The position numbers were made by a program, and so were the translations under genes. Below, one piece after another: positions 4,165 through 26,484 of a stretch of DNA of 64,000 nucleotides. The DNA is from an uncultured Nitrospiraceae bacterium (GTDB lineage Bacteria; Nitrospirota; UBA9217). The notes beneath the pieces were generated by a model that ran no database searches, had not been told where the DNA came from, and was given only the letters and a program-made list of their open reading frames with translations. The stretch lies in NCBI GenBank assembly GCA_964412455.1, contig CAYPOT010000009.1:5179-69178 (forward strand), read 5' to 3'. Within the stretch, counting starts at the first letter, position 1. Every line of letters begins with the position of its first letter.

Positions 4165-5262
4165 ATGAACCTTATCCCCCGCAAGAAGACTCGTTCGATC
4201 GCCCTCGGCAGCGTGAAGATCGGCTGGGGCTCGCCGGTTGCCGTCCAGTCCATGTGCAACACGGACACTCGGGACGCCGACACCACGCTCGTGCAGATCC
4301 GGCGTCTTGAAGCAGCCGGTTGCGAGATCGTCCGGCTTGCCGTGCCCGACACCGAGGCCGCGAAGGCCATCGGGAAGATCCGGAAAGGTACGACCGTTCC
4401 GCTCGTGGCCGATATCCACTTCGATCACCGGCTTGCCCTCGAAGCGGTGAAGCAGGGCGTTGATGGCCTTCGCATCAATCCGGGCAATATCGGAGGCAGG
4501 GACAAGGTCGCGGAAGTAGTGAGCGCCTGCAAGGACCGGCGTCTTCCCATTCGCATCGGGGTGAACGCGGGATCGCTCGAGAAGCACCTGCTAGAAAAGT
4601 ACGGCCACCCCACTCCTGAGGCTATCGTCGAGAGCGCGTTCGGCCATATTCGCATTCTTGAGGACCTGGATTACCGGGAGATCAAGGTCTCGCTCAAGGC
4701 GTCGGACGTTCTGACCACGGTCGAGGCCTACCGCCTGTTTGCGAAGCAGTCGGACTATCCTCTGCACATCGGCATCTCCGAGGCGGGCACGATCCACTCC
4801 GGCACGATCAAGTCGAGCGTCGGCCTCGGGATCCTGCTCGCCGAGGGCATCGGCGACACCATGCGGGTGTCGCTTACCGCGGACCCGGTCGAAGAGGTCC
4901 GCGTGGCCTACGGGATCCTTAAATCGCTCAAGATCCGTGAGCGGGGAGTGAATCTTATCTCCTGCCCCACCTGCGGCAGGACCGAGATCAATATCATCGG
5001 CCTTGCCGAAGAAGTGGAGCGCAGGCTCGGCCATATCACCGAGCCGCTCACCGTCGCGGTCATGGGCTGCGTGGTGAACGGGCCGGGCGAAGCGCGCGAG
5101 GCCGACATCGGCATCGCCGGCGGCAAAGGCGTGGGCATGCTGTTCAAGCACGGCGAGATCGTGAAAAGGTTCGACGAGAAAGAACTGGCGGATGTGCTGG
5201 TGAGGGAAGTTGAGAAGATGGTTCAATTACGTTCAAAGTTCAAGGTTCAAAGTTCAAAGTAG
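4165..5262 (+). CDS. ispG: 4-hydroxy-3-methylbut-2-enyl diphosphate synthase
   Basis: 365 aa; GcpE family features (RIGVNAGSLE, CPTCGRTE Fe-S cysteines). Confidence 0.9.
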   Translation: MNLIPRKKTRSIALGSVKIGWGSPVAVQSMCNTDTRDADTTLVQIRRLEAAGCEIVRLAVPDTEAAKAIGKIRKGTTVPLVADIHFDHRLALEAVKQGVDGLRINPGNIGGRDKVAEVVSACKDRRLPIRIGVNAGSLEKHLLEKYGHPTPEAIVESAFGHIRILEDLDYREIKVSLKASDVLTTVEAYRLFAKQSDYPLHIGISEAGTIHSGTIKSSVGLGILLAEGIGDTMRVSLTADPVEEVRVAYGILKSLKIRERGVNLISCPTCGRTEINIIGLAEEVERRLGHITEPLTVAVMGCVVNGPGEAREADIGIAGGKGVGMLFKHGEIVKRFDEKELADVLVREVEKMVQLRSKFKVQSSK

Positions 5263-5374: not shown

Positions 5375-5665
5375 ATGTCGACTATATCGATCAAAGGTGA
5401 TTCTTCGGAAACAGTCAGGTCACTCCTGACAAGTGCGTTGGACAGGGAAAAGCGCATTATTACTGACAGTTTGCGAACAACACGCGATAAGGTGAATGCC
5501 CTGGCAATAATGCTGTCGGTTGATGTTGAAAAGCTGATGCGGGGCGAGATCGAGCATGCTGAATCAAAGGACATGCAATTAATCGAACTCGAAGGGGAAG
5601 TCGAACTGCTCAGGCATCTTGAGACAGAGCTCAGGGAACTTGAAACCCTTGAAATATGCAGATAA
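5375..5665 (+). CDS. Small coiled-coil protein, putative antitoxin partner of the downstream DUF6516-like gene
   Basis: 96-aa ORF overlapping the next ORF by 10 nt, indicating translational coupling. Sits in an accessory-looking region of lower GC. Confidence 0.35.
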   Translation: MSTISIKGDSSETVRSLLTSALDREKRIITDSLRTTRDKVNALAIMLSVDVEKLMRGEIEHAESKDMQLIELEGEVELLRHLETELRELETLEICR

Positions 5666-6051
5666 AGGCATACCTTGACGGAATTCTCGATACACTTGCC
5701 GCGAATCCCCATGTGGAAGCCCAAAGTATTTCCTTTGAAGAACGCCCTCCCGATGCAGTCATCATAACAGGTATTGTCGCATTCATCGACGGCTCAAAAC
5801 TGCATATCAAAGAATTCCTGGTCCTGAAACCCGCTCATGCGGCTATCCTCAAGTATGGCTATCACTACGTGTCGAGTAAAGGTGAATTGATCTTCCGATA
5901 CGACAATGCGCTCGATCCCAAGGCGAGGGGATTGTCGACCTATCCGGAGCACAAACATGCTCCCGACGGATTAAAAGAAACCCGAAGACCATCGTGGCAG
6001 GATATTTTACGAGAAATTTCGAGCTCAATAGGCCAGTACATCAGGAAATAA
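5656..6051 (+). CDS. DUF6516 / TumE-family-like putative toxin
   Basis: 131 aa with ...IFRYDNALDPKARGLSTYPEHKHAPDG, resembling the RYDNAPHh..PHHKH signature I recall for DUF6516 (from memory, not searched). Confidence 0.4.
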   Translation: MQIKAYLDGILDTLAANPHVEAQSISFEERPPDAVIITGIVAFIDGSKLHIKEFLVLKPAHAAILKYGYHYVSSKGELIFRYDNALDPKARGLSTYPEHKHAPDGLKETRRPSWQDILREISSSIGQYIRK

Positions 6052-6069: not shown

Positions 6070-6171
6070 ATGCGTTATTCCCGTTTGTTCATCCCCACCC
6101 TGAAAGAAGCCCCGACCGACGCCGAGGCGGTCTCGCACAAGCTCATGGTGCGCGCGGGCTTCGTGCGATAA
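6070..6171 (+). pseudogene. Displaced 5' fragment of proS (first 33 codons, then stop)
   Basis: atgcgttattcccgtttgttcatccccaccctgaaagaagccccgaccgacgccgaggcggtctcgcacaagctcatggtgcgcgcgggcttcgtgcg duplicates the start of intact proS at 13824. The GGAGA RBS is retained. Confidence 0.85.
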
Positions 6172-6288: not shown

Positions 6289-6534
6289 ATGAAAACGCTG
6301 ATGAGCGAGAGGGGTCAGGTGGTGATCCCGAAAAAGATCCGGGAGACCATTCACCTCCATAAAGGCGACGAACTGGAGATCGAGGTGCGCGATGAGACGA
6401 TCGTGCTGAAGCCGCTTCGCAGGTTCAAGGCCAAAAAATGGCAGGATTACGCCGGAATCGGTGAAGGCATCGTGGCTGCCCATCTCAAGGACAAGAAGAA
6501 GGAAAAAGCCGATGAAGATGCTTATTCTCGATAG
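6289..6534 (+). CDS. AbrB/MazE/SpoVT-domain antitoxin (VapB-like)
   Basis: MKTLMSERGQVVIPKKIRETIHLHKGDELEIEV is a swapped-hairpin AbrB-type DNA-binding motif. It overlaps the downstream PIN gene. Confidence 0.7.
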   Translation: MKTLMSERGQVVIPKKIRETIHLHKGDELEIEVRDETIVLKPLRRFKAKKWQDYAGIGEGIVAAHLKDKKKEKADEDAYSR

Positions 6535-6931
6535 CTACGCACTGCTCTGTCTTTTCGATAAAAAGCGCAGGACGGAGAAGGAAGCGATAATGTCCTATCT
6601 TGAGGATGCGGGCAAAGGCAAGGCGAAGCTTTATATCAGCAAGATCAACGAAGGTGAAGTGTTTTATAAGCTCTATAAGTATTTCGGCGCCGAGATCGCG
6701 ACCGGATTCAGGGCAGACCTCAAGCGGGGAATGTTCCCCCTGCATGTCGTGCCCGTGAATGATAAACGAATAGACGAAGCGTCCGTGATTAAGGCGAAAT
6801 ATCCGGTATCCTACGCCGACGCATTTTGCATAGAACTTGCCAGGGACATGAACCTGCCTGTGGTGACAGGTGATCCGGAATTCGAGGCTGTGAAGGACCT
6901 GATAAAGCTACAGCCGCTTGCGGAACAGTAG
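6512..6931 (+). CDS. PIN-domain toxin (VapC-like)
   Basis: MKMLILDSYALL... (conserved acidic D near the N-terminus) ...TGDPEF; ~140 aa, overlapping the antitoxin stop. Confidence 0.65.
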   Translation: MKMLILDSYALLCLFDKKRRTEKEAIMSYLEDAGKGKAKLYISKINEGEVFYKLYKYFGAEIATGFRADLKRGMFPLHVVPVNDKRIDEASVIKAKYPVSYADAFCIELARDMNLPVVTGDPEFEAVKDLIKLQPLAEQ

Positions 6932-6949: not shown

Positions 6950-7056
6950 GCACGGCGAGATCGTGAAGAAGTCCGATGAGAAGGAATTGGCCGATGTGCT
7001 GGTGAGGGAAGTGGAAGATTTAGTTCGGCAAAAAAATAAAAGGTAAGATCGTATTT
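6950..7056 (+). pseudogene. Displaced 3' fragment of ispG (last ~35 codons)
   Basis: cacggcgagatcgtgaagaagtccgatgagaaggaattggccgatgtgctggtgagggaagtggaag duplicates ispG 5150-5215. It encodes ...HGEIVKKSDEKELADVLVREVEDLVRQKNKR*. Confidence 0.8.
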
Positions 7057-7115: not shown

Positions 7116-8435
7116 ATGAAAAAATATTATGATCCTTTATATGGTGAAATCAAGCTAGATGAGCTTGTCTTTAGTATTATTGAAAAATGTCCTGAAATAA
7201 AGCGGCTCAGATATGTCGGCCTCATGAATTTCAAATCTTTGAGCATGCTACCTTTAACAAGCATCACGAGGTTAGAACATACAATTGGTCTATCGTACCT
7301 AGCACAATTATTTGCCGACTCAAATTCTTTTTCAAAAACATCGAGGAACAATTTAATCGTCGCTTCACTTTTTCATGATGTTAACAGCGCGTCATTTGGA
7401 CATGCTATTGAATGGGCAGTGGATCGCTATACGCCTTATAACCACGAAAAGGAAACCGAGTGGTTAGCTGATAAAGAAAAGACCTCGTTTTTAAACAAAA
7501 AGCCAATATTTATTGAGCAATATGGTGTGACAAGATATGATTTGGAAAAAGAATATGGATTTAACTTGACTAAGGCTTATCAAATTATTAACGGAGTGGA
7601 TTCATTTACAATTAACAATAATGGAATAGATCTAGATAACGTTGACAACGTTTTTCGTATGGGTTTATACATGGGGCTGGAACCTTTCGAAAAGGGATGC
7701 CCTGTAAGGTTAGCCAAGAGTTTAAAGATAGTTGACGGGCGTGATAATTTTGTTATTAAAGAGGAAGCTATTGACTTAGTGATGACATGGTATCAATTAA
7801 GAGCGAATATTTACGGGAGATTTATTTACTCCGAAGAGTATATGGGTTATGAATATCTTTTATTTCAACTTATTGCTGAGTATGCAAAACACGTTGAGTT
7901 TGATAGCATAAGAAATCTTTTTAATTACACGGATGAAAATCTATTGTGGCATTTTTATGATAAGAAGAATTCGCTCCCGTCGGTAAGTAATATAGCGAGC
8001 ATGTTATTATTGCATGATATTCCTAAGACATACGCAATATTGCGCTCAGATGAATTTGACAAAAAAGAAAAACTAATTAAACCTGGAATTCTAGATGCTA
8101 TTGCCCAAAGTGTGAGTGAGTATTTGCACAATTCTAAAGAGGTTTCGAACACATCATCAGGGGAAATATTTTTGCATTTAACGACAGACGATAGAAAAAC
8201 CAACAGACAAATTGACTTTTATGTAGAGAAGAGTGGAGAAGTTGTTAAGCAATCTATAGGTTTCGATAAGAGATACATTGTTATTGGTGTATTGGGGAAA
8301 AAAAATCTGTCAGAAAAAGTAAAAACGCTAATCGCAGAAAAAACCATTGAAAAGCTTAGAAGCAGTAATTTGGGTAATTTCGATAATATTGAATTCGTCG
8401 AATCAAATGCGTTAAAGCAAAAAGTGCTATTCTAG
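7116..8435 (+). CDS. HD-domain phosphohydrolase, dGTPase/SAMHD1-like (dNTP triphosphohydrolase-like)
   Basis: DPLYGEIKL...IKRLRYVGLMNF...TRLEHTIGLSYLA...LIVASLFHDV, pattern of Dgt/SAMHD1 N-terminal HD region. First gene of the AT-rich operon. Alternative ATG at 7083. Confidence 0.55.
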   Translation: MKKYYDPLYGEIKLDELVFSIIEKCPEIKRLRYVGLMNFKSLSMLPLTSITRLEHTIGLSYLAQLFADSNSFSKTSRNNLIVASLFHDVNSASFGHAIEWAVDRYTPYNHEKETEWLADKEKTSFLNKKPIFIEQYGVTRYDLEKEYGFNLTKAYQIINGVDSFTINNNGIDLDNVDNVFRMGLYMGLEPFEKGCPVRLAKSLKIVDGRDNFVIKEEAIDLVMTWYQLRANIYGRFIYSEEYMGYEYLLFQLIAEYAKHVEFDSIRNLFNYTDENLLWHFYDKKNSLPSVSNIASMLLLHDIPKTYAILRSDEFDKKEKLIKPGILDAIAQSVSEYLHNSKEVSNTSSGEIFLHLTTDDRKTNRQIDFYVEKSGEVVKQSIGFDKRYIVIGVLGKKNLSEKVKTLIAEKTIEKLRSSNLGNFDNIEFVESNALKQKVLF

Positions 8436-8451
8436 CCGCACCTTTTAATTT

Positions 8452-9660
8452 ATGGAAAAGAAAAAAGATATTTCGCATTTTGATTTGCTTGATTGGAATT
8501 TTACTAGAGAAGATTCGAGACTCTACTTGCACAATTTCTGTTGGTATCCTTCAAGATTCATCCCAATAATCCCAGCCCACTTAATTCAAGCCCTAAGCAA
8601 GACCAATGAAACTGTGCTGGATCCGTTTTGCGGAATAGGGACTACGTTAGTCGAGGCTTTGAAGCAGAGGCGAAATGCAATTGGCGTTGATTTAAATCCA
8701 ATCGCATGCTTTGTCTCTAAAACTAAAGGAAAAATATTGACAGGTCATAAAGTAAACCTGTCTCTAATTGAAGGCTTGTTAGAAAACCTGGCGCCGTTGA
8801 GTGGTGATGATCTATTCACAAAAAAACGCACAGGTAGAGGTCATTATAATTTACGGGAGAAGTCAATCCCAAATTACGCTGTCAATGTGGAATGGTTTCA
8901 TCCCGAAACTTTAAAAATGCTTTCGCATATATACTATTCTGTCGAAGATCTTCCGAGAGGACTTACGAGGGATATATGCAAAATATTTTTTATTTCAATT
9001 CTCATGCAGTCCTCCGGGCACGATTTGAATAAGCCATACACTTATTATGCAGACAATGTGAAGCCTAAAAAAGAAAAATTGATTAAAGACGCCTACAAAC
9101 TATATGTGCAAAAATTGGATAAATTTTTATGTGAATATAAGCTCATAGAGTTACCCGAGAAAAACAGGCTGGATTTTGCCGTATACAACGAAGATGCGAG
9201 AGGGTTAGAAGGTTTGGTGGATAAAAAAGTTGACCTTATAGTTACTTCGCCTCCGTATTTAAATGTTACTGACTATACAACTGGCTTTAGGTTAGCTCAT
9301 CTGTGGTATAGCTTTCAAAAGGATATGCGTATTGAGGACATTAAAAGAAGAGAAATTGGTGCTCGATACAGGCGGAAGTCACGTAACAGTTTAAATGAAT
9401 ATGTCGGGGATATGCAGTCAGTCCTTTGCAAAATGGACAGCGTTTTAAAGACCAATGGGTATCTTTGCTTGATTCTTGGTGAATCACAAAAATACTCCAA
9501 GATTGTGAATAAGATAATAATGGACTTTATGTCGAACGAATTGCGGTTAGAATATATTGATTCTTTTAGTCGTGAGATAATAAAAAAATTCTTCATTCAT
9601 CCAAATGGTGGGGGTGTCAGTACAGAAGAAATTATTATTTACAGAAAAAAAAGAAAGTGA
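8452..9660 (+). CDS. DNA methyltransferase, N4/N6 family (motif I FxGxG then motif IV SPPY)
   Basis: VLDPFCGIGTTLVEA...IGVDLNP (AdoMet motifs I-III) and DLIVTSPPY (catalytic motif IV) about 200 aa later. SPPY is typical of N4-cytosine methyltransferases. Confidence 0.65.
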   Translation: MEKKKDISHFDLLDWNFTREDSRLYLHNFCWYPSRFIPIIPAHLIQALSKTNETVLDPFCGIGTTLVEALKQRRNAIGVDLNPIACFVSKTKGKILTGHKVNLSLIEGLLENLAPLSGDDLFTKKRTGRGHYNLREKSIPNYAVNVEWFHPETLKMLSHIYYSVEDLPRGLTRDICKIFFISILMQSSGHDLNKPYTYYADNVKPKKEKLIKDAYKLYVQKLDKFLCEYKLIELPEKNRLDFAVYNEDARGLEGLVDKKVDLIVTSPPYLNVTDYTTGFRLAHLWYSFQKDMRIEDIKRREIGARYRRKSRNSLNEYVGDMQSVLCKMDSVLKTNGYLCLILGESQKYSKIVNKIIMDFMSNELRLEYIDSFSREIIKKFFIHPNGGGVSTEEIIIYRKKRK

Positions 9661-10766
9661 GGTGTGTCTGCGCTATGGAAAATCACATCGTCATGATGCC
9701 TAATATGATAATACCATATGGCTACGAAATAGTGCCAATTATGGCTTATCCTGCTGGTTTTATCTACAGATTTAGATTTGATGAGGAATGGCTTTCAGAT
9801 AGGATAAAAGCCGATGTGTCTTCATTGTCAGCGAAAAAGGGTTATATCGTTTTCAGAGATCCAGAAAGCGCTACGTTTTACCCCATAAGGCATATCACAA
9901 TCAAGGTGGCGCAAAGAATAGGTAAATACTATTATTTTGAATATGAATTAAATGAAATATTTGACTTTGATTCTAACGAAACATGGAGGACAAAGCAAAT
10001 AACTCAATTTAATGACTCTTTTAAGAGTTTTCATGAATCAGAGTTTAAAGACAACATTCCTGGTAAAGATATGAAGCCCCTCGTATTTTTGACTAATTTT
10101 GCACCAACCATAAATAATGAACATGTCCAATTTACAAATCCATTGGAAAATGAGTTGGAGCGATGGGGAAATATAATTTCAATTATTAAAAATATAAAGT
10201 TTTATGAAAACGTAGAATTTATAAAAATCCTTGATATAGTGCCAATGAAAAAGCGAGACGAGGAAGTGCAAGTTAAAGAGAATTATTTATTTGTACAAGA
10301 AGACGGCGATTATAAGTTGAGGATATTTCAGCTTAAGCCTAAAGGATCGGTAGAAAGGATCGAACCGAAAGATATTGAAGTAAGATCAGACGACAAATAT
10401 ATTAGCGTCATAAGAAATAAACAACGCGCAGTAGGGAAGTATGATGTGCTAAGTTTCGTTTTCCGCGTGCATGCCGGCAGTGGAGGCCAGAGAAGTTATT
10501 TAGATGTTCTACATGCTCCCAAAACAGAAGCAGCCCAGTACATTGCGCCGACACTGTATCTTCCAGTAGCTATTCAAGGAAAAAGAAAGCTAATGGTTAT
10601 AAGAATTTTATTTGCCTTTGTCTTAGTCTCATTCTATCTTTTTCCTGAGGCTATAAGTTTCATATCTGATCACAGGATTGTGAAGGATTTTGCTATGGTC
10701 CTCTTCACTATTTCTGTGATAGATATTCTGAAAGAAATACGGGACCTGTTTAAGGCGAATAGATAA
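9657..10766 (+). CDS. Hypothetical protein with soluble N-domain and two C-terminal transmembrane helices
   Basis: No recognisable motif. C-terminus LMVIRILFAFVLVSFYLFPEAI...VKDFAMVLFTISVIDIL is strongly hydrophobic. Start overlaps the MTase stop (ATGA) and its stop overlaps the next start. Confidence 0.45.
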   Translation: MRCVCAMENHIVMMPNMIIPYGYEIVPIMAYPAGFIYRFRFDEEWLSDRIKADVSSLSAKKGYIVFRDPESATFYPIRHITIKVAQRIGKYYYFEYELNEIFDFDSNETWRTKQITQFNDSFKSFHESEFKDNIPGKDMKPLVFLTNFAPTINNEHVQFTNPLENELERWGNIISIIKNIKFYENVEFIKILDIVPMKKRDEEVQVKENYLFVQEDGDYKLRIFQLKPKGSVERIEPKDIEVRSDDKYISVIRNKQRAVGKYDVLSFVFRVHAGSGGQRSYLDVLHAPKTEAAQYIAPTLYLPVAIQGKRKLMVIRILFAFVLVSFYLFPEAISFISDHRIVKDFAMVLFTISVIDILKEIRDLFKANR

Positions 10767-12907
10767 TGGTTATCGTTGGCCTAAACCTTGGTTCAACAGA
10801 ATTTAATAAGAAATTACACGACGGAGGCATCTGTATTGTTGTTGATGGTAAAGTAAAATTCGCAGTGGCTGAAGAGCGTATTTCGCGCAGAAAGCGCTCA
10901 GGCGGATTCAGGGAATCACTGGACTATGCTCTTTCTTGTTTGAATTTAGATAGGAGTAATATCGATCTTGTTGTTTATTCAAGCTGTTGTGAGAGTATTA
11001 ACAATAGCATTAACATCGCAGAATTACAGAATATAAAATCAATTCCCTGTGACCATCATCTATCTCACGCTTTAAGTGTGTATCTGACATCTCCTTATGA
11101 AAAGGCACTTATTGCCGTTTTAGACGCAGGAGGAAATCTTCTCGGTAATGACAACCATAGTGACTGGTGGCTTCATTCCCGAGAGCAGCAATCATACTAT
11201 GTCGCAGAAGGGAACAATGTCACGCTAATTGATAGAGATTTTATCTTACCTGAAGCAGCAGGCATAGGGGAAATATATCGTGCCTTTACATATTATCTTG
11301 GGTGGGAATCTTCTCGATTTGCAGGCAAGACCATGGCGCTTGCCGCATATGGAGATCCTGGTGCATTTAAAGGTAACAACATATTTGACTTGGACATAAA
11401 TGGGAACATACGCTCACATATAAAAAATAATCCGATAGAGCCCTTGTCTATGGTTGAGCAGTTACTCGATAGATATGGGAGAAAAAATGTGCCTCCTCGG
11501 AAAGATGGTCAACCGATTCTACAAGTGCATAGTGATCTTGCTCGCTGGATACAAAATGAAACGGAGGACATAGTAACCGCAAAACTTAACTATTTAATGC
11601 GTAAGACAGGCATTTCTAATCTTTGTTTGGCAGGAGGAGTTGCCTATAATTGCTCGATGGTTGGAAAGATAATGAATAATACTATGGCAAATAATGTTTT
11701 TCTCCAGCCGGCATCGGGTGATCAAGGTCAATGTCTTGGCAATGCCATGTTTGGATACACTCAAATTAGAAATGCTTGGATAAGAGTTAATCCATTCAAT
11801 CCATATCTAGGATGCGGTATTGAAATAAACCATGATACAATTCGAGGCGCGTTAAAGAGTAATAATCAGGTTACAATTAATGCCCCGCGTGATATAGCAG
11901 TAACAACTGCAAAATTACTCTCGCAAGGAGAAATAGTGGCGTGGTTCCAAGATCGGAGTGAATTCGGTCCTCGTGCCTTGGGCAATCGAAGTATTCTTGC
12001 AAACCCCTGTCTTTCGAAGAGTAAGGAGAAATTGAATTCAATAAAGGGTCGTGAAGACTTTATGCCTTTTGCTCCGACTGTTCTATACGAAAGTGCAAAA
12101 GACTATTTTGTGATTTCCGATGAATGTCCTTTTATGACTGCAGCAGTTAAGGTGCGCCCAAACGTCAGAGAAACAATACCGGCAGCTGTCCATGTGGACG
12201 GAACATCTAGAGTCCAAACATTGAGAAAAGAAAATAATCCGCTATTTTACGATTTGATACATGAATTCTACAAGTTGACAAAAGTGCCATTAATTATTAA
12301 TACTTCATTCAATGCAGCTGGTGAGCCTATTGTTGAAACACTTAATAATGCAATAGACACTTTTATGAAATTAGACATAAGATTTATGGTAGCTGGTTCG
12401 TTCCTTCTGGAAAAGCCATTGGTTAGAACATCTATGCCTAGTGTCAAAGATGCAGGTCGGTTGTTGGATATTGTATTTGGGGCGGATCTGATCGTCAACG
12501 AGACGGAATTAAGTGCGCTGCTTAGTGAGCGCTTTCCGGGAATTAAATCCTTTCCTAGAGATAAATTTTTGCTCAATGAAAAATTTATTAATTGGTTAAA
12601 AAACGGCAGAAAAACGACAACCATTAGGTATAAGAAAGTGGGTATAGATTTCCCAGTGGCGACATGTTTGCCGCTAATTCCGACAAAAGATTTTTCAAAA
12701 AATCGAGGTGAAGCGCCAGTTGGCTTTTTGAAAATAAGAAAATATATAATAAAAAAATATCGGGATCTTAATGAAACAGATGCTCGTAATGATGGATTTA
12801 AAACTCTAACGGAGCTAAGAAGTGTTCTTTTCGATATCTATGGTGCTATACAAGAAGATGACTATGTTTCTATATACTATGTTCAAATAAAAAATAATCC
12901 AAGTTAA
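10766..12907 (+). CDS. NodU/CmcH-type carbamoyltransferase (Kae1/YgjD-like N-domain + carbamoyltransferase C-domain) with ~170-aa C-terminal extension, possibly ASCH/PUA-like
   Basis: MVIVGLNLGST...DGGICIVVDGKVKFAVAEERISRRKR...CDHHLSHALSVY (Carbam_trans_N) and RSILANPCLSKSKEKLNSIKGREDFMPFAPTV (Carbam_trans_C). Tail INWLKNGRKTTTIRYKKV is a weak ASCH-like motif. Confidence 0.6.
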   Translation: MVIVGLNLGSTEFNKKLHDGGICIVVDGKVKFAVAEERISRRKRSGGFRESLDYALSCLNLDRSNIDLVVYSSCCESINNSINIAELQNIKSIPCDHHLSHALSVYLTSPYEKALIAVLDAGGNLLGNDNHSDWWLHSREQQSYYVAEGNNVTLIDRDFILPEAAGIGEIYRAFTYYLGWESSRFAGKTMALAAYGDPGAFKGNNIFDLDINGNIRSHIKNNPIEPLSMVEQLLDRYGRKNVPPRKDGQPILQVHSDLARWIQNETEDIVTAKLNYLMRKTGISNLCLAGGVAYNCSMVGKIMNNTMANNVFLQPASGDQGQCLGNAMFGYTQIRNAWIRVNPFNPYLGCGIEINHDTIRGALKSNNQVTINAPRDIAVTTAKLLSQGEIVAWFQDRSEFGPRALGNRSILANPCLSKSKEKLNSIKGREDFMPFAPTVLYESAKDYFVISDECPFMTAAVKVRPNVRETIPAAVHVDGTSRVQTLRKENNPLFYDLIHEFYKLTKVPLIINTSFNAAGEPIVETLNNAIDTFMKLDIRFMVAGSFLLEKPLVRTSMPSVKDAGRLLDIVFGADLIVNETELSALLSERFPGIKSFPRDKFLLNEKFINWLKNGRKTTTIRYKKVGIDFPVATCLPLIPTKDFSKNRGEAPVGFLKIRKYIIKKYRDLNETDARNDGFKTLTELRSVLFDIYGAIQEDDYVSIYYVQIKNNPS

Positions 12908-12939: not shown

Positions 12940-13782
12940 ATGACGCAATTTTTGAAAGACTTGCTGCGAAACTATGGGCTCTTGTACATAACGCTTACGC
13001 AGCTTTTGAGTGAGCGACCAGGAAACAAGTATGCTTCGCTGGACGAGTACTATCACAGTCTGGGCATGCAGACGCCTGATAACCCAATGTTTTACGTGCA
13101 TCCGAGCTCGGATGGCAAAACGCGCTACTTAGACGAGGGAGAGCACGATATTGAAGCGCGTGATGATGCGGGTAACAAGGTTGGAAAAGTAGTTGGCGTT
13201 TTGGAACTTCCGGAAGACGAATTCTATTTTTTTCAAGCATTCCGTCCTGGCATGTTCGATTTAGAAAAGGATCTTCCTTCATTTCTTTTTGAAATGGCAT
13301 TAATTTATGCTAATTCTCTATTTGAAAATTACATATCTAGCATTATTCGTCTCAGGTTTCAAAAACACCCAGAACTGATGGGTGTCAATAAACAAGTGAC
13401 TTATGGTCAAGTAATTAAGAGCAATTCGAAACAAGATGTCATCGAGCACCTGATTAATCGAGAAGTCCAACAATTGATGTATGAGCCTATCGGTGCAGTA
13501 TTGGAACGAATGCGAGCAAAATACGGATTTCGAGATCTAACCACGAAGTACGACGAGGAAATAATTTATCTGTCACTTATAAGAAATTGCGTTATGCATA
13601 ATTCTCGGAAGGTTGATTCTAAGCTTGCCACCAATAAACCTAAGCTAGTATTAGGCGAAAGATTGCCTGTTGAAAAGAGTCTCGTGGACACAGCAATTCA
13701 TACTTACCGAAAATTTTGCTATGAAGTTGATATCATGTTAGAAGCTATTGGATCACTCAAACAAACAAGTGAGCCTCTATGA
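12940..13782 (+). CDS. Hypothetical protein with HEPN-like Rx4H motif (LIRNCVMHNSRK)
   Basis: 280 aa, last gene of the AT-rich operon. R-x4-H near the C-terminal third is compatible with a HEPN RNase motif. No other recognisable features. Confidence 0.35.
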   Translation: MTQFLKDLLRNYGLLYITLTQLLSERPGNKYASLDEYYHSLGMQTPDNPMFYVHPSSDGKTRYLDEGEHDIEARDDAGNKVGKVVGVLELPEDEFYFFQAFRPGMFDLEKDLPSFLFEMALIYANSLFENYISSIIRLRFQKHPELMGVNKQVTYGQVIKSNSKQDVIEHLINREVQQLMYEPIGAVLERMRAKYGFRDLTTKYDEEIIYLSLIRNCVMHNSRKVDSKLATNKPKLVLGERLPVEKSLVDTAIHTYRKFCYEVDIMLEAIGSLKQTSEPL

Positions 13783-13823: not shown

Positions 13824-15518
13824 ATGCGCTACTCGAAACTGTTCATTCCTACATTAAAAGAGGCGCCGACCGACGCCGAGGCGGTCTCGCACAAGCTCAT
13901 GGTGCGCGCCGGCTTCGTGCGCCAGCTCGCGGCGGGGCTCTATATCTACCTTCCGCTGGGCATCCGGGTGATGGAGAAGATCAACCGCATTATCCGCGAG
14001 GAAATGAACGCCATCGGCGGCCAGGAAGTGACCATGCCGGTGCTGAATCCCGCCGAGGTGTGGCAGCAGACCGGGCGGTGGGATGCCATCGGCGGCGAGA
14101 TGTTCCGTCTCAAGGACCGCGGCGGCAGGGACATGTGCCTGGCCATGACCCACGAGGAGACCATGACCTGGCTCGCGGCGCACGATATCCGTTCCTACCG
14201 GGAACTGCCCCAGATCTGGTACCAGGTGCAGACGAAATTACGGGACGAAGCGCGGCCCAAGAGCGGCGTACTCCGGACGCGCGAGTTCACCATGAAGGAC
14301 TCCTACAGCTTCGACGCCGATGAGGCCGGGCTCGACCGGTCCTATCAACTTCATCTCGAGGCCTACAAGAAGATCTACTCCCGCTGCGGAATTCGATTTC
14401 ACGTGGTCCAGAGCGACACGGGCATGATGGGCGGCAGCATGGCGCACGAGTACATGGCGCCTTCTCCGGCGGGCGAGGACGACGTGGCGCTCTGCGATGG
14501 CTGCGGGTACGCGGCGAACACGGAGCTCGCGCTGTCCGTGCCGAAGGCGGCTGCATCATCGAACGACAGTTACGAGGAGATCGCTACGCCGGAACGGCGA
14601 ACCATCGACGAGGTGACCCGCTTCCTGAAGGTCACGCCGGACCGTTTGCTCAAGTCCATCCTCGTCACGACCGACCAGGGACCGCTGCTGGCGCTGGTGC
14701 GCGGCGACCAGACCCTGCATGAGAAGAAGCTGGCCAAGCTTATCGGACCCCATCGGCCCGCGCAGAAGGACGAGGTGAAGGCCGCTCTCGGCGTGCCTGT
14801 CGGATTCATCGGCCCCATGGGCCACAAGATCCGGAAGATCGCTGACCTGGTGCTGAAACAGGGGACCCACATCGCCGGCGCGAACAAGGAAGGCTTCCAT
14901 GTGAAGGGTGTCTCCGCGGACAAGCATTTCAGCGACGCCGAGTTCGCGGACATCCACACCGCGGCGGAAGGCGACGCCTGCGCCCAGTGCGGCAAGCCGC
15001 TGCGCATCGAGCGGGTCATCGAGATCGGGAACATCTTCAAGCTGGGCACCAAGTACTCCGTCCCGCTCAAGGCGAACTACCTTGACGAACAGGGGAATGA
15101 GAAGCCCATCATCATGGGGAGCTACGGCATCGGCCCGGCGCGCATCGCCGCCGCGGCCATCGAGCAGGGGAACGACGAGAACGGCATCATCTGGCCGGCG
15201 GCGATCGCGCCCTACCAGGTCCTGATCGTGCCGGTGAACGTGAAAGACCAGCGCTCCATGGACGTGGCCGAGGAGATGCACACGGCCCTTGAGGAAAAAG
15301 GGTTCGAGGCGCTCATGGACGACCGCGACGAACGGGCCGGCGTCAAGTTCAAGGACGCGGACCTTATCGGCATTCCGTACCGGGTCGTCATCGGCGAGAA
15401 GAACCTGAAGGAAGACCTGGTGGAGCTTAAGGAGCGGAAGACCGGGGTCGTGGTCAAGGTGAAGGTCGCCGACGCGGTGGCGGCGATCGTGAAGAAGATC
15501 GTGATGGAGAACGCGTAA
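13824..15518 (+). CDS. proS: Proline--tRNA ligase
   Basis: [32 protein letters not shown]-terminus and class II aaRS motifs. ATG 13824 preferred over TTG 13803. The first ~45 nt are notably AT-richer than the displaced copy at 6070. Confidence 0.9.
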   Translation: MRYSKLFIPTLKEAPTDAEAVSHKLMVRAGFVRQLAAGLYIYLPLGIRVMEKINRIIREEMNAIGGQEVTMPVLNPAEVWQQTGRWDAIGGEMFRLKDRGGRDMCLAMTHEETMTWLAAHDIRSYRELPQIWYQVQTKLRDEARPKSGVLRTREFTMKDSYSFDADEAGLDRSYQLHLEAYKKIYSRCGIRFHVVQSDTGMMGGSMAHEYMAPSPAGEDDVALCDGCGYAANTELALSVPKAAASSNDSYEEIATPERRTIDEVTRFLKVTPDRLLKSILVTTDQGPLLALVRGDQTLHEKKLAKLIGPHRPAQKDEVKAALGVPVGFIGPMGHKIRKIADLVLKQGTHIAGANKEGFHVKGVSADKHFSDAEFADIHTAAEGDACAQCGKPLRIERVIEIGNIFKLGTKYSVPLKANYLDEQGNEKPIIMGSYGIGPARIAAAAIEQGNDENGIIWPAAIAPYQVLIVPVNVKDQRSMDVAEEMHTALEEKGFEALMDDRDERAGVKFKDADLIGIPYRVVIGEKNLKEDLVELKERKTGVVVKVKVADAVAAIVKKIVMENA

Positions 15519-23368: not shown

Positions 23369-23430
23369 TGCCTCTCCCCTCGCGGGAGAGGGCAGGGTGA
23401 GGGGGCATGGTTAGATAATCATACACTATA

Positions 23431-23459
23431 TTGACAGAATATCGTACACATGGTAATAT
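23431..23459 (+). promoter_or_regulatory. Sigma70-like promoter TTGACA-N17-TAATAT for the XRE-Panacea gene
   Basis: TTGACA at 23431-36 and TAATAT at 23454-59; GAGGGAGGG RBS before ATG 23484. Confidence 0.45.
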
Positions 23460-23483
23460 GGTGCCACAGAGGGAGGGTTTACC

Positions 23484-24272
23484 ATGAGTGTGTCCAGTAA
23501 AATAGGGCTCCGGATCAAAGAGCTGCGGGAAAAGGCCGATATGAGCCAGGAGTCATTGGCGCAGAAGATGAAGATGTCCCGCCCTGCCATAACGCAGATC
23601 GAGAAAGGTACGAGAAAGGTCTCTGCCGAAGAACTGGTGAACTTTTCGCAAATGTTCCACGTACCTGTTGATGGCATTTTGAATCAGGGAAAAGAGCCGG
23701 AAGTCTTTCTTCAGGAGGAAAGGGCTGCAAAGGCGGCCAAGCCGCAGATGCGTATCAGCGTTCCGCAGAAGAACCTTCAAAAGTTCAAGGAGGTGCTGTT
23801 GTACATCCTGAACAAGGTGGGCGCAAAGGAGAACATCGGCGAGACCGTCGTCTACAAGCTGCTCTACTTCATAGATTTCGATTTCTACGAGAAATATGAG
23901 GACCAGCTGGTCGGCGCCACGTACATCAAGAACAAATATGGTCCTACACCGGTCGAGTTTGCTAAGATCGTCGAGAAGATGATCAAGGACGGTGAGATCG
24001 AGAAGGTCAAGAGCGAATACTTCAAGCTCCAGCAGACCAAGTACCTGCCCCGCCGGAAGCCGGACCTCACGAAGCTCCAGGCGACCGAGATCGAGGTGAT
24101 CGACGACGTGCTGAACCGGCTCTCGGAAATGAACGCCAACCAGATCAGCGCGTACTCGCACAGCGATGTTCCCTGGATGTCGACGAAGGACGGCGAAACC
24201 ATCGATTACGAATCGGTCTTTTACCGCACGCCGCCCTATTCCGTGCGGGCCTACACGGATGAGAACGGATGA
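23484..24272 (+). CDS. XRE-family HTH fused to Panacea (DUF4065) domain antitoxin
   Basis: N-terminal HTH_XRE (IKELREKADMSQESLAQKMKMSRPAITQIEKG). C-terminal KLLYFIDFDFYEKYEDQLVGATYIKNKYGPTPVEF matches the Panacea/SocA-like signature. Confidence 0.65.
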   Translation: MSVSSKIGLRIKELREKADMSQESLAQKMKMSRPAITQIEKGTRKVSAEELVNFSQMFHVPVDGILNQGKEPEVFLQEERAAKAAKPQMRISVPQKNLQKFKEVLLYILNKVGAKENIGETVVYKLLYFIDFDFYEKYEDQLVGATYIKNKYGPTPVEFAKIVEKMIKDGEIEKVKSEYFKLQQTKYLPRRKPDLTKLQATEIEVIDDVLNRLSEMNANQISAYSHSDVPWMSTKDGETIDYESVFYRTPPYSVRAYTDENG

Positions 24273-24784
24273 GCCGATCGTTCTACAGTGAATTCGACGG
24301 GACGCTGTTTGAAAAGATCACTCATGTCCCGGAGTTCGAGAAAGATCTAAAAAAGCTCTCCAAGCGATTCTCTTCGCTCGAAAAGGACCTGCAGACCTTC
24401 ATCAAGGTCGCGATGCATCTATTTCACAAGCAGAAGATCGACAGCAATGCGATCTTTCATATATCCGATCTCGGGATCAAGTCTCCGAATATATACAAGG
24501 CCAAGAAGTTTGCGTGCCGGGCGTTGAAGGGCAAAGGAGCGCAATCGGGAATCAGGGTTATTTATGCATATCATGAGGAAGCGGATTGGGTAGAGTTTGT
24601 CGAGATTTATTATAAGGGCGATAAGGAGAGCGAGGGCAGGGAGAGGATAGCTCGAATATATGGTAAACCTCGACAGGTAGGCGGACCGCTTGCGAGCCGC
24701 AAGGCCTTGAGAGAATCGCTCCGCGCCAAAGGAAAAGCGCCGTCCGAAGTCGTGATCGCATCGAGAAAACAGGAGAGGGATTAG
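24269..24784 (+). CDS. RelE/ParE-superfamily-like toxin partner (4-bp ATGA overlap with antitoxin)
   Basis: ...ACRALKGKGAQSGIRVIYAYHEEADWVEFVEIYYKGDKE resembles the RelE/HigB core (sGiRviY...v.fl.i..K.d); basic tail. Confidence 0.45.
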   Translation: MSRSFYSEFDGTLFEKITHVPEFEKDLKKLSKRFSSLEKDLQTFIKVAMHLFHKQKIDSNAIFHISDLGIKSPNIYKAKKFACRALKGKGAQSGIRVIYAYHEEADWVEFVEIYYKGDKESEGRERIARIYGKPRQVGGPLASRKALRESLRAKGKAPSEVVIASRKQERD

Positions 24785-24839
24785 ATGCCCTCCCTATACG
24801 TTGACACGGCGTCGCGCAGAAATTATGCTGCCAACACCC

Positions 24840-24874
24840 TTGACAATGGCTTCAAGGCTGTTGTATTATAAATA
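24840..24874 (+). promoter_or_regulatory. Promoter (TTGACA-N18-TATTAT) overlapping a perfect palindrome TTGTATTATAAATACAA, likely operator
   Basis: TTGACA 24840-45; the 17-bp palindrome at 24858-24874 lies immediately upstream of the HTH gene at 24893. Confidence 0.45.
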
Positions 24875-24892
24875 CAACAGTAAGTAAGGGAG

Positions 24893-25276: not shown

Positions 25277-25487
25277 CCTATCCATTTCTCAGTCTGTTTA
25301 ATTAGGTTTTCGAAAGAATGCGTATATCCAAGTAATGACATGGCAAACCAAGCGAAAAAGACAGAGCACTCAGGATCGAAGAAAGGTTGCGGCTCATACT
25401 GGGGACGAAAGAAGGACGCAAAGACAGAAAGCAACCGCAAGCGCCGCGAAGACGGCAAGAGATTGATTCGAGAGACAGCGAGAGTAT

Positions 25488-26387: not shown

Positions 26388-26484
26388 AAACAACAAAGCC
26401 CCGTTCGCTAGTTTCGAGGCGCCCTGCGGTACCCCACGAACGAGGACTTACTTGTTGCTATTATGATAATGCAGGGGCGGAAGT

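What the first reader, a model, noticed from the sequence alone, without database searches (positions are those of the whole stretch)
10766..12907. Carbamoyltransferase with a possible C-terminal ASCH/PUA-like reader domain: hypothesis of nucleobase N-carbamoylation
The first ~540 aa match the NodU/CmcH bipartite architecture (Kae1-like domain plus carbamoyl-adenylate-forming C-domain; motifs DHHLSHA and RSIL.NP...REDFMPFAP). The final ~170 aa contain FINWLKNGRKTTTIRYKKVGIDF, reminiscent of the ASCH beta-barrel start (G.K..E.R). ASCH/PUA/EVE domains read or process modified nucleic-acid bases (for example N4-acylcytidine amidohydrolases). Fusion to a carbamoyltransferase, next to an SPPY-type (N4-C-like) DNA MTase, raises the possibility of an N4-carbamoyl or related cytosine or adenine modification pathway. 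This is inference from weak motifs.
Basis: inference. Interest (0 to 1): 0.7.

Follow-up and report, generated by a model that had tools for sequence, protein, structure and literature searches.

The report
Carbamoyltransferase–ASCH enzyme in conserved defence-island cassette
The gene really encodes a carbamoyl-transferring enzyme fused to a small domain built like the E. coli enzyme that strips acyl groups off the N4 amine of cytidine. It is the hallmark of a conserved gene cassette for which I found no description, which sits among anti-phage genes and probably carbamoylates a cytosine nucleotide or nucleic acid.

Summary
ORF 10766-12907 (713 aa) has Carbam_trans_N, Carbam_trans_C and a C-terminal ASCH domain above Pfam's cut-off. 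The tail model (pLDDT 94) is closest to YqfB, the N4-acetylcytidine amidohydrolase. YqfB's Lys/Thr/Arg/Tyr residues are nearly invariant in 72 homologues.

The enzyme belongs to an obligate module. A 360-aa protein with no Pfam match ("X") lies directly upstream in all 36 loci where both genes can be read. X has a soluble part and a C-terminal helical hairpin. ASCH can be fused C-terminally, fused N-terminally or encoded separately.

About half the loci, including this window, add a SAMHD1-like HD hydrolase and an amino-methyltransferase with invariant TSPPY. Two loci carry a NUDIX gene directly upstream instead. Neighbours are restriction, Lamassu, Hachiman, Thoeris-like and toxin-antitoxin genes, never biosynthetic clusters. 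X and the tail are absent from the phage and plasmid collections searched.

Best reading: a cytosine-directed carbamoylation module of a defence-type system I could not find described. Substrate, atom modified and biological output are inferred, not shown.

The parts
7116..8435 (+). SAMHD1-like HD-domain hydrolase. The ORF opens at 7083; the likely start is ATG 7116, which gives 439 aa.
   Evidence: Pfam HD, E 1e-5. The best PDB matches are all SAMHD1 dNTP triphosphohydrolases (phmmer E 4e-7; family profile E 4e-10). RLEH, HD and GIDLDNxDN are invariant in six orthologues and align with SAMHD1's metal-site motifs. Close homologues (about 48 clusters) sit on the same contigs as the cassette.
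8452..9660 (+). Amino-methyltransferase of the N6_N4_Mtase family, 402 aa. Motif I is DPFCGIGTT at about aa 57 and motif IV is TSPPY at about aa 266.
   Evidence: Pfam PF01555, E 3.7e-20. Full-length match to PADLOC Type II MTase model PDLC03364, E 2.3e-37. TSPPY is invariant in ten orthologues. The nearest solved chains include a DNA cytosine-N4 methyltransferase, but only over motif I.
9675..10766 (+). Protein X, the obligate partner. It is 363 aa from ATG 9675 (369 aa from GTG 9657). It has no Pfam family. Layout: soluble alpha/beta domain, then beta-sandwich, then a C-terminal two-helix hydrophobic hairpin.
10766..11749 (+). Carbamoyltransferase N-terminal (Kae1/ASKHA-like) transfer domain, aa 1-328.
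   Evidence: Pfam Carbam_trans_N, E 1.8e-38. HHxxxH (DHHLSHA), VLDAGGN and GDQGQ are kept in homologues. Nearest solved chains are NovN, GdmN and TobZ.
11909..12415 (+). Carbamoyltransferase C-terminal (YrdC-like) domain, aa 382-550. In this family it forms carbamoyl-adenylate.
   Evidence: Pfam Carbam_trans_C, E 4.8e-64, full profile 1-170.
12578..12865 (+). YqfB-type ASCH domain, aa 605-700. The octapeptide G614-R-K616-T-T-T619-I-R621 is at nt 12605-12628. Also D672, D676 and Y692.
   Evidence: Pfam ASCH above cut-off. Family profile's best PDB hit is YqfB, E 0.025. AF2 pLDDT 94, with YqfB crystal structures as top Foldseek hits. At the position of YqfB Thr24, 67 homologues have T and 2 have S. 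D-x3-DGF is present in 70 of 72.
12940..13782 (+). 280-aa ORF in the same low-GC island. It is specific to this window and is probably not part of the conserved module.
   Evidence: No hit in Pfam, PADLOC, NCBIfam, PHROGs or PDB. It is next to the cassette only in contigs that carry the identical cassette. The clustering of neighbours found no relative in other loci.
6070..6167 (+). Remnant copy of the 5' end of proS. It marks the insertion hotspot.
   Evidence: 98 nt, 85% identical to 13824-13921.
6950..7026 (+). Remnant copy of the 3' end of ispG, immediately before the low-GC cassette.
   Evidence: 77 nt, 83% identical to 5148-5224. GC falls from about 0.60 to 0.36-0.42 across 6-14 kb.

Best explanation
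ORF 10766-12907 is an intact three-domain enzyme. It is a NodU/TobZ-type carbamoyltransferase: a YrdC-like domain makes carbamoyl-AMP from carbamoyl phosphate and ATP, and a Kae1-like domain transfers the carbamoyl group. This is fused to a YqfB-type ASCH domain, whose pocket in YqfB holds the N4-acylated face of cytidine.

It is the signature gene of a conserved module for which I found no description: X plus carbamoyltransferase plus ASCH. In this window the module is in its four-gene form: SAMHD1-like HD hydrolase, TSPPY amino-methyltransferase, X, CT-ASCH. It was acquired horizontally into a toxin-antitoxin and defence hotspot between ispG and proS.

Most likely mechanism (all of this paragraph is inferred):
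- The ASCH domain captures a cytosine nucleotide, or a flipped-out cytosine in a nucleic acid, by its N4 side.
- The transferase carbamoylates it. My preferred acceptor is the N4 amine, or an N4-methyl amine written by the methyltransferase, which would give a ureido-cytosine. A hydroxyl on the same nucleotide is the main alternative.
- The retained Lys/Thr/Arg set lets the ASCH domain hydrolyse the mark again, or hand it over.
- X, anchored in the membrane and translationally coupled to the enzyme, is its reader or effector partner.
- HD here, and NUDIX in other versions, hydrolyses the corresponding (d)NTPs.
- The whole is a conflict or anti-phage system, not a metabolic or antibiotic pathway.

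Shown: the domain identities, the conservation of catalytic-type residues, the gene linkage, the variable architectures, and the defence-island context.

Inferred: the substrate, the atom modified, the roles of X, HD and MTase, and the defence phenotype.
For: Domains:
- Pfam and PDB matches.
- ASCH fold closest to YqfB.
- Residues equivalent to YqfB K21, T24, R26 and Y89 are nearly invariant, and E74 is replaced by an invariant Asp. The roles of these residues are from PMC6972931. The GKTR versus GKER subtypes are from 10.64898/2026.02.27.708502.
- YqfB also cleaves an N4-carbamate, capecitabine (PMC10688628).

Functional link between CT and ASCH:
- C-terminal fusion in 72 of 120 homologues.
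- N-terminal fusion in P0072/L023.
- Separate adjacent ASCH genes in L021 and L022.

Linkage with the other genes:
- X sits directly upstream in 36 of 36 non-redundant loci where both genes are readable, and the stop and start codons overlap.
- HD and MTase are always found together, in 9-11 loci. Close HD homologues lie on cassette contigs, including two that were picked blind.
- NUDIX lies directly upstream of X in L022 and L023, and about 2 kb away on the opposite strand in L005.

Context:
- Defence neighbours scored with PADLOC: Type IIG R-M, ThsB, LmuA/LmuB, HamA, PD-Lambda-3_B.
- Also integrase, prophage and toxin-antitoxin genes.

Precedent: a NodU-type enzyme carbamoylates 5hmC in ssDNA, RNA and 5hmdCTP (PMC8670742).
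Against: - There is no experimental or direct computational evidence for the substrate.
- Every characterised NodU/CmcH/TobZ-family enzyme O-carbamoylates (my own knowledge of the family). An N4 acceptor would be new for this family; only the distant Kae1/TsaD relatives make N-carbamoyl links.
- A writer and an eraser of the same mark in one module looks futile unless it is regulated.
- At least ten two-gene loci have no MTase, HD or nuclease, so those genes are accessory.
- None of the four proteins except the MTase matches a PADLOC model. Defence is inferred from neighbours only, and locus L007 has housekeeping flanks.
- YqfB similarity at sequence level is marginal (E 0.025).
Confidence: 0.5

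Rival explanations
1. The cassette is an R-M-like epigenetic system that marks the host's own DNA with N4-carbamoyl (or N4-methyl-N4-carbamoyl) cytosine. The HD protein acts as nuclease or as pool sanitiser.
For: A DNA-MTase-like gene with invariant TSPPY sits in the operon. The ASCH domain is of the N4-acyl-cytosine type. The cassette sits among R-M systems. PUA-like domains read modified DNA bases (PMC7641849).
Against: About half of the loci lack both MTase and HD. No recognisable endonuclease is present. SAMHD1-like proteins are dNTPases. YqfB-type ASCH is a small nucleoside-level enzyme. X's membrane hairpin has no role in this scheme.
Confidence: 0.18
2. A nucleotide-based abortive-infection system. 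CT-ASCH binds a cytidine nucleotide and carbamoylates it, on N4 or on a sugar hydroxyl. The product is a signal or a poison. X binds it through its soluble domains and damages or depolarises the membrane through its hairpin. HD or NUDIX degrade the signal or deplete the pool.
For: The minimal system is an enzyme plus a membrane-anchored protein with a possible PUA-like ligand domain. This is the same layout as cyclase plus TM-effector systems. The accessory genes are alternative NTP hydrolases. NodU-family enzymes typically act on sugar hydroxyls of small molecules. A PUA-like domain has been shown to sense a modified mononucleotide in PUA-Cal-HAD (10.64898/2026.01.15.699771).
Against: No evidence that X oligomerises or forms pores. 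Its second helix is short and carries charged residues. The MTase is unexplained, unless it supplies methylome-derived m4-dCMP as a trigger. The conserved catalytic Thr/Lys/Arg of ASCH would not be needed for mere binding.
Confidence: 0.15
3. A defence aimed at phages with hydroxymethylated bases. Like the phage enzyme, the transferase O-carbamoylates 5hmC in entering phage DNA or in 5hmdCTP. This blocks glucosylation or use of the nucleotide. X and ASCH read the modified cytosine, and HD or NUDIX destroy 5hm-dCTP.
For: The only nucleic-acid substrate known for this enzyme family is 5hmC (PMC8670742). The strongest profile match of the CT part is the phage family PHROG 1601 (E 1.5e-109). O-carbamoylation fits the family's chemistry. 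EVE-type domains read 5mC and 5hmC.
Against: Phage enzymes are only about 31% identical and never carry the tail. The ASCH pocket type is N4-directed. Many carrier taxa (Actinomycetota, Nitrospirota MAGs) are not known hosts of hmC phages. The MTase is unexplained.
Confidence: 0.1
4. An RNA-directed function. The enzyme edits tRNA or rRNA cytidines, for example by removing ac4C and/or adding a carbamoyl group, as stress regulation or as a toxin acting on translation.
For: All 19 ASCH proteins tested removed ac4C from tRNA (10.64898/2026.02.27.708502). The Kae1/TsaD relatives of the transfer domain act on tRNA A37. The MTase also gives weak matches to RNA m2G methyltransferase models (UPF0020, Trm14).
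Against: The genes are patchily distributed, horizontally moved and embedded in defence islands, unlike housekeeping RNA-modification genes. The HD and NUDIX partners point to (d)NTPs. The MTase aligns over its full length with DNA MTase models.
Confidence: 0.07
5. A tailoring step for a nucleoside-type secondary metabolite or a cell-surface sugar.
For: Most characterised family members are antibiotic or Nod-factor tailoring enzymes. X is membrane-anchored.
Against: No biosynthetic genes recur near the module. Clustering of neighbours finds only X, CT, MTase and HD. Neighbours are defence, toxin-antitoxin and mobile-element genes.
Confidence: 0.04

Closest known systems
Phage 5-hydroxymethylcytosine carbamoyltransferase (Yang et al. 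2021, eLife, PMC8670742)
   Same: Same two-domain NodU/TobZ-type enzyme. It is the only family member shown to modify a cytosine in DNA, RNA and dNTPs, using carbamoyl phosphate and ATP.
   Different: The phage enzyme is about 63 kDa with no ASCH domain. It is phage-encoded next to a thymidylate-synthase-like hydroxymethylase and acts on a hydroxyl group. The window's enzyme is cellular, only about 31% identical to phage enzymes, carries an N4-type ASCH domain, and is always paired with X.
YqfB, E. coli N4-acetylcytidine amidohydrolase (ASCH, 'GKTR' subtype; PDB 9kyf/9kyh/1te7)
   Same: Best structural and profile match of the tail. Shares the G-x-K-x-x-T-x-R octapeptide, the Tyr of the IY(G/P) motif and an acidic residue at the E74 position.
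   Different: YqfB is a free-standing 103-aa salvage enzyme. Here the domain is fused or adjacent to a carbamoyltransferase. Asp replaces Glu74, Asp replaces His70, and YqfB's Asp27 is not kept.
TobZ / NovN / GdmN O-carbamoyltransferases of antibiotic pathways
   Same: Closest solved structures for aa 89-555 (E 1e-72 to 1e-48). Same Kae1-like plus YrdC-like architecture and metal-site motifs.
   Different: Those enzymes lie in biosynthetic clusters and act on sugar or macrolactam hydroxyls. They have no ASCH domain and no X partner.
(PIN)-GNAT-EVE operons with an ASCH protein (Iyer et al. 2013; Bell, Wolf and Koonin 2020, PMC7641849)
   Same: Same logic of an acyl-group transferase combined with two PUA-superfamily modules in conflict or toxin-antitoxin-like loci. 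Those authors predicted acylation of a nucleic-acid base.
   Different: The transferase there is a GNAT acetyltransferase, not a carbamoyltransferase. The EVE domain is fused to it. There is no membrane anchor, and neither system has been characterised.
PUA-Cal-HAD defence system (bioRxiv 10.64898/2026.01.15.699771) and SAMHD1-like dGTPase defence genes
   Same: A PUA-superfamily domain, a link to a methyltransferase, and a dNTP-hydrolysing enzyme together in a defence locus. There a methylome-derived modified mononucleotide is the trigger and dNTP depletion is the output.
   Different: No calcineurin-like or HAD enzymes here. A carbamoyltransferase and X are present instead. The HD and MTase are missing from half of the loci.

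Membership tests
NodU/CmcH/TobZ-type carbamoyltransferase | N-terminal Kae1/ASKHA-like domain (Pfam Carbam_trans_N) with HxxxH, D and D metal-site motifs | tested here: met
   PF02543, E 1.8e-38. DHHLSHA, VLDAGGN and GDQGQ are present and conserved in homologues. Mapping these motifs onto TobZ's ligands was done by inspection only.
NodU/CmcH/TobZ-type carbamoyltransferase | C-terminal YrdC-like domain (Pfam Carbam_trans_C) | tested here: met
   PF16861, E 4.8e-64, covering the whole profile. PDB matches to NovN, GdmN and TobZ.
NodU/CmcH/TobZ-type carbamoyltransferase | Carbamoyl transfer dependent on carbamoyl phosphate and ATP | not testable with these tools
   Needs an enzyme assay.
ASCH domain, YqfB-type (GKTR) amidohydrolase subgroup | Pfam ASCH match above the gathering score, and a PUA-like beta-barrel fold | tested here: met
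   27.6 bits against a cut-off of 21.2. AF2 pLDDT 94. Foldseek top hits are YqfB 9kyh/9kyf (E 3e-6), then ASCH structures 3s9x, 1t62 and 5y6b.
ASCH domain, YqfB-type (GKTR) amidohydrolase subgroup | Octapeptide G-x-K-x-x-T-x-R (equivalents of Lys21, Thr24 and Arg26) | tested here: met
   GRKTTTIR at aa 614-621. 69 of 72 homologues are canonical: T in 67 and S in 2. Alignment with YqfB.
ASCH domain, YqfB-type (GKTR) amidohydrolase subgroup | Glu74 acid, His70 and Asp27, as conserved in YqfB-like proteins | tested here: inconclusive
   Asp676 aligns with Glu74 and is invariant. Asp672 replaces His70. The Asp27 position is Tyr, Phe or Leu. Tyr89 is kept. Glu-to-Asp substitution was tolerated in another ASCH enzyme.
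ASCH domain, YqfB-type (GKTR) amidohydrolase subgroup | Hydrolysis of N4-acylated cytidine | not testable with these tools
   Needs an assay with ac4C or N4-carbamoyl-C.
Phage 5hmC carbamoyltransferase system | Encoded in a phage genome beside a thymidylate-synthase-like dCMP hydroxymethylase | tested here: not met
   No X or tail in IMG/VR or INPHARED. Phage CT hits are about 31% identical and lack the tail. No thymidylate-synthase-like family recurs among neighbours.
Restriction-modification system | A methyltransferase paired with a restriction endonuclease of matching specificity | tested here: not met
   The MTase is present. No protein of the cassette matches any nuclease or REase model in Pfam or PADLOC. 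The HD protein matches dNTPases.
SAMHD1/dGTPase-like dNTP triphosphohydrolase (the HD gene of the cassette) | HD-domain metal ligands H...HD...D in SAMHD1-like motifs | tested here: met
   RLEH, HD and GIDLDNxDN are invariant in six orthologues and are collinear with SAMHD1. Only the first 100 or so residues and one later motif align; the remainder was not tested.
N4-cytosine DNA methyltransferase (the MTase gene of the cassette) | S-P-P-Y/F motif IV plus proven m4C product | tested here: inconclusive
   TSPPY is invariant in 10 orthologues and the protein aligns full-length to a Type II MTase model. Base specificity cannot be read from the sequence with certainty.
EVE/PUA-like reader (N-terminal domain of X) | PUA-like pseudo-barrel fold with a base-binding pocket | tested here: inconclusive
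Known anti-phage defence systems (PADLOC-DB v2) | Match of the component proteins to a defence-system model | tested here: not met
   Only the MTase hits generic MTase models. HD, X, CT-ASCH and the 280-aa ORF have no hit.

The most novel reading that the evidence does not exclude
X plus CT-ASCH is a new kind of immune module built on carbamoyl chemistry. On infection, the enzyme turns a cytidine nucleotide into a carbamoylated nucleotide. This nucleotide may be an N4-methylated one released from MTase-marked host DNA. The site would be an N4-ureido group or a sugar O-carbamoyl group. The product acts as a second messenger or a replication poison. It is read by the PUA-like domain of the membrane-anchored X, which then arrests or kills the cell. 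The ASCH hydrolase, and HD or NUDIX, reset or limit the signal. If the product instead stays in DNA, it would be a new natural base, N4-carbamoylcytosine.
Probability: 0.15. Interest if true: 0.9.

Novelty: new variant of a known kind. Interest (0 to 1): 0.72.

Why it matters
Carbamoylation of nucleic-acid bases is known from a single phage enzyme, which acts on 5hmC. Here, a cellular enzyme of that family is permanently tied to two other modules. One is a domain built like the only known class of N4-acyl-cytidine hydrolases. The other is a family with no Pfam match, found in hundreds of sequence clusters.

In one lineage the module is also tied to a SAMHD1-like hydrolase and an N4-type methyltransferase, and it sits inside defence islands. 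That is a compact, testable candidate for one of three things:
- a new cytosine modification;
- a writer-eraser pair for such a mark;
- a new nucleotide-based defence mechanism.

It would also give a first function to the X family and to fused ASCH domains. The genes are few and small, and the predicted chemistry leaves a precise mass signature (+43.006 Da), so the question can be settled quickly at the bench.

Tried and rejected
Searches that found nothing:
- PADLOC, NCBIfam and PHROGs gave no system-level match. Only generic MTase models and 'Nol-like carbamoyltransferase' models hit.
- A single-sequence search of the tail against PDB found nothing. Only the family profile and the fold search reached YqfB.
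- The first attempt to scan genomes with a 24-sequence tail alignment failed because no stretch was conserved enough. A 7-sequence alignment worked.
- Scans of IMG/VR with the tail and with X found no relatives. tblastn of X against PLSDB plasmids and INPHARED phages found no match.
- X has no Pfam signal in any of 25 members, even at E<=10, and no profile similarity to the ASCH tail.
- The AFDB fold library was unavailable.
- Foldseek on X returned only beta-sandwich hits.
- Seven literature searches for carbamoyltransferase with ASCH, defence, DNA modification or N4/N6-carbamoyl bases found no description of this fusion or cassette. Iyer et al. 2013 is not in the library.

Ideas rejected:
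- The 280-aa downstream ORF as a fifth component. It is not conserved elsewhere.
- A secondary-metabolite context. No such neighbours were found.
- Phage origin.
- P0228 as an informative fusion of X to another domain. Its C-terminal half looks like a decayed or mis-called sequence, and no transferase follows it.

Full report
**What is at the coordinates**

The ORF 10766-12907 on the + strand encodes 713 aa. Pfam finds three domains:
- Carbam_trans_N, aa 95-328, E 1.8e-38.
- Carbam_trans_C, aa 382-550, E 4.8e-64.
- ASCH, aa 605-700, E 4.9e-6, 27.6 bits against a gathering score of 21.2.

The closest solved structures for aa 89-555 are the antibiotic O-carbamoyltransferases NovN, GdmN and TobZ.

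**The tail is a YqfB-type ASCH domain**

A single-sequence PDB search found nothing for the tail. A profile built from 24 homologous tails gave YqfB (1te7, 9kyf) as its best hit over the whole domain, but only at E 0.025.

An AlphaFold2 model of aa 592-713 has mean pLDDT 94. Its best Foldseek matches are the crystal structures of E. coli ac4C amidohydrolase YqfB, including the ac4C complex (E 3e-6, target-normalised TM 0.79). Other ASCH proteins follow.

The residues line up as follows in the alignment with YqfB:

| YqfB residue | Window residue | Conservation in the family |
|---|---|---|
| Lys21 | K616 | kept |
| Thr24 | T619 | T in 67, S in 2 of 72 homologues |
| Arg26 | R621 | kept |
| His70 | D672 | Asp replaces His |
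| Glu74 | D676 | invariant Asp, in D-x3-DGF (70 of 72) |
| Tyr89 | Y692 | kept |

In YqfB, Lys21, Thr24 and Arg26 are essential, and Thr24Ser is active (PMC6972931). A 2026 preprint splits ASCH enzymes into GKER and GKTR octapeptide types, and this tail is GKTR. YqfB also hydrolyses capecitabine, which is an N4-carbamate of a cytidine analogue (PMC10688628). A carbamoyl-type group on N4 is therefore within reach of this kind of pocket.

Fold and residue conservation are shown. Activity is inferred.

**The fusion is a family, and the link between transferase and ASCH is flexible but constant**

Of the 120 best database homologues, 72 carry the tail. One protein, P0072, has the ASCH domain at the N-terminus instead. 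The closest homologues without a tail (about 557 aa, up to 54% identical) are followed by a separate ASCH gene of 167-172 aa in both loci examined (L021 and L022).

Fusion in two orders, plus fission, is strong evidence that the two activities work together.

**The obligate partner X**

The gene just upstream (9657/9675-10766) has no Pfam, PADLOC, NCBIfam or PHROG match. Its stop codon overlaps the transferase start codon (TAATG).

I collected loci three ways:
- through the transferase;
- through the tail in species-representative genomes;
- through X itself in metagenomes.

Scoring them with my own profiles and by all-against-all clustering covered 43 non-redundant loci, counting the window. 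In all 36 where both genes can be read, X lies directly upstream of the carbamoyltransferase. The other seven stop at a contig end or are decayed. There is no counter-example.

An exhaustive profile search finds 773 clusters at 50% identity (133 at E<=1e-30). Almost all are 350-400 aa long.

The AF2 model of X (pLDDT 89, pTM 0.81) shows three parts:
- an alpha/beta domain, aa 1-175;
- a beta-sandwich, aa 182-301;
- two C-terminal helices that are hydrophobic in all members.

**Accessory genes**

Clustering of all neighbours found only four recurrent families: X, the transferase, the methyltransferase (11 loci) and the HD protein (9 loci). HD and MTase always occur together and always in the order HD-MTase-X-CT.

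*The HD protein.*
- It matches only SAMHD1-type dNTP triphosphohydrolases in PDB.
- It keeps RLEH, HD and GIDLDNxDN, which align with SAMHD1's metal-site motifs.
- Its close homologues (about 48 clusters, after which scores drop sharply) share contig lengths with the transferase or X lists in about 30 cases.
- Two long contigs that I picked because they did not match those lists also turned out to carry the full cassette.
- So this HD subfamily appears specific to the cassette.

*The MTase.*
- It has motif I before motif IV.
- TSPPY is invariant in ten orthologues.
- It aligns over its full length to a Type II DNA MTase model.
- S-P-P-Y is the usual N4-cytosine signature (established knowledge), but specificity is not proven.

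*Loci without HD and MTase.* At least ten loci with 2.5 kb or more upstream of X have neither gene. These are mostly Actinomycetota, Rhodobacteraceae and Acidobacteriaceae. Their neighbours vary: HTH regulators, a GHKL ATPase, a NB-ARC/TPR protein, an IS66 transposase.

*NUDIX.* In L022 and L023 a NUDIX (NUDIX_4-type) gene sits directly upstream of X. In L005 one lies about 2 kb away on the opposite strand.

So the core is X plus CT plus ASCH. The add-ons are a methyltransferase and one of two unrelated kinds of nucleotide hydrolase.

**Context**

In the window the cassette lies in a stretch of 36-42% GC inside a genome of about 60% GC. The flanks are:
- upstream, ispG followed by two toxin-antitoxin pairs (TumE-like and MazE/PIN);
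- downstream, proS.

Remnant copies of the proS 5' end (6070-6167, 85% identical) and of the ispG 3' end (6950-7026, 83% identical) show repeated insertion at this spot.

Elsewhere the cassette lies beside:
- Type IIG R-M genes (L001, L006), ThsB (L006), Lamassu LmuA/LmuB and Hachiman HamA (L022), and PD-Lambda-3_B (L051), all scored with PADLOC;
- a Type I R-M system and prophage structural genes (L051);
- an integrase and conjugation genes (L003);
- a PIN toxin-antitoxin pair (L052).

One locus, L007, has housekeeping flanks. No biosynthetic cluster was seen. X and the tail are absent from IMG/VR (pattern scan), INPHARED and PLSDB. Phage carbamoyltransferases are about 31% identical and lack the tail.

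The window itself comes from a metagenome contig. The same five genes are found on two other assemblies.

**How it most likely works**

Shown:
- an intact carbamoyltransferase;
- a YqfB-type pocket under purifying selection on its catalytic-type residues;
- obligate coupling to a membrane-anchored partner;
- optional coupling to an N4-type MTase plus a dNTPase-like HD, or to NUDIX;
- a defence-island setting.

Inferred: the common denominator of the ASCH type, the MTase motif, and the HD and NUDIX enzymes is a cytosine nucleotide recognised on its N4 side. I therefore propose that the module carbamoylates a cytosine-containing nucleotide or nucleic acid. In this proposal ASCH supplies substrate capture and probably hydrolytic reversal or hand-over. 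X acts as reader or effector at the membrane. HD or NUDIX act on the corresponding triphosphates.

My rough estimates:
- about 0.6 that a cytosine nucleotide or nucleic acid is the substrate;
- about 0.35 that N4 is the atom modified;
- about 0.6 that the biological role is defence or conflict.

The main difficulty for N4 is that every characterised NodU-family enzyme makes O-carbamates (my own knowledge of the family). The phage precedent acts on the hydroxyl of 5hmC, and on ssDNA, RNA and 5hmdCTP alike (PMC8670742). Only the distant Kae1/TsaD relatives form N-carbamoyl bonds (established knowledge).

**Rivals**

1. *Strict self-DNA marking, as in an R-M system.* It fits the MTase. It fails for the two-gene loci and lacks a nuclease.
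2. *A nucleotide signal or poison with X as membrane effector.* It fits the minimal enzyme-plus-TM-protein layout and the alternative NTP hydrolases. It echoes PUA-Cal-HAD, where a PUA-like domain senses methylome-derived m6-dAMP and dNTPs are depleted. It has no direct support.
3. *O-carbamoylation of 5hmC from hypermodified phages.* It fits the family's chemistry but not the N4-type pocket or the MTase.
4. *An RNA target.* It is suggested by ASCH tRNA deacetylases. It fits poorly with the mobile, patchy, defence-linked distribution.
5. *Metabolite or glycan tailoring.* It is not supported by any neighbour.

**Comparison with known systems**

The enzyme is a member of the NodU/TobZ family, and the tail is a member of the ASCH family, YqfB subtype, by every sequence and fold criterion I could test. 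The cassette as a whole matches no PADLOC model and no paper in seven searches.

The nearest conceptual relatives are:
- the phage 5hmC carbamoyltransferase;
- the predicted (PIN)-GNAT-EVE plus ASCH base-acylation operons (PMC7641849);
- PUA-Cal-HAD.

I therefore class it as a new variant of a known kind (nucleic-acid or nucleotide modification modules of conflict systems). It could turn out to be categorically new if the signalling reading or the new-base reading holds.

**Verdict**

The finding is more interesting than stated, because the fusion protein marks a widespread, tightly conserved module for which I found no description. Its chemistry can be tested directly. What remains unknown is exactly what matters most: substrate, product and phenotype.

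Noticed in passing
window 6070-6167 and 6950-7026 (with 13824-13921 and 5148-5224): A 98-nt copy (85% identical) of the proS 5' end and a 77-nt copy (83% identical) of the ispG 3' end lie between ispG and proS. They bracket toxin-antitoxin genes and the low-GC cassette. This is a signature of repeated insertion or exchange at an ispG-proS hotspot.
   Followed up: partly
window 5375-6051 and 6289-6931: Two toxin-antitoxin-like pairs lie just upstream of the cassette. One is a TumE-family toxin (5656-6051) with a small upstream ORF. The other is a MazE-type antitoxin (6289-6534) with a PIN toxin (6461-6931). Locus L052 likewise has a PIN/RHH pair directly upstream of its cassette.
   Followed up: partly
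window 12940-13782 (+): A 280-aa ORF lies 33 nt after the carbamoyltransferase, with the same low GC. It has no match in any library. It contains 'IRNCVMHN', an Rx4H pattern reminiscent of HEPN RNases, which I saw by eye only. It is not found next to the cassette in other, non-identical loci.
   Followed up: partly
window about 23400-31400: A second lower-GC (0.45-0.51) island with defence-type genes: an HTH plus SocA/Panacea antitoxin (23484-24272) with a 171-aa partner (24269-24784), DUF3800 (25752-26387), a 948-aa Mrr_cat_2 plus ResIII helicase (27723-30569) and DUF5677 (30608-31408).
   Followed up: partly
L053 6006-7703 (protein P0228): An X-like protein whose first 280 or so residues align with X. 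It lacks the membrane hairpin and has no carbamoyltransferase next to it. It sits between a RES-Xre toxin-antitoxin pair, GmrSD and an integrase. Its C-terminal half looks like decayed or mis-called sequence.
   Followed up: partly
L016 4995-7064; L017 11477-13948; L013 2332-3042: In two-gene loci the immediate neighbours include a 689-aa GHKL/HATPase_c_3 protein on the same strand as X, a NB-ARC plus TPR (STAND-like) protein, and a 5-formyltetrahydrofolate cyclo-ligase directly upstream of X. Each was seen once.
   Followed up: no
L019 9860-10285 and L020 2117-2437: Free-standing ASCH proteins with the same GRKxTTIR-type octapeptide occur in Streptomyces hilarionis (141 aa) and a Sulfolobales MAG (106 aa), without a carbamoyltransferase.
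   Followed up: no
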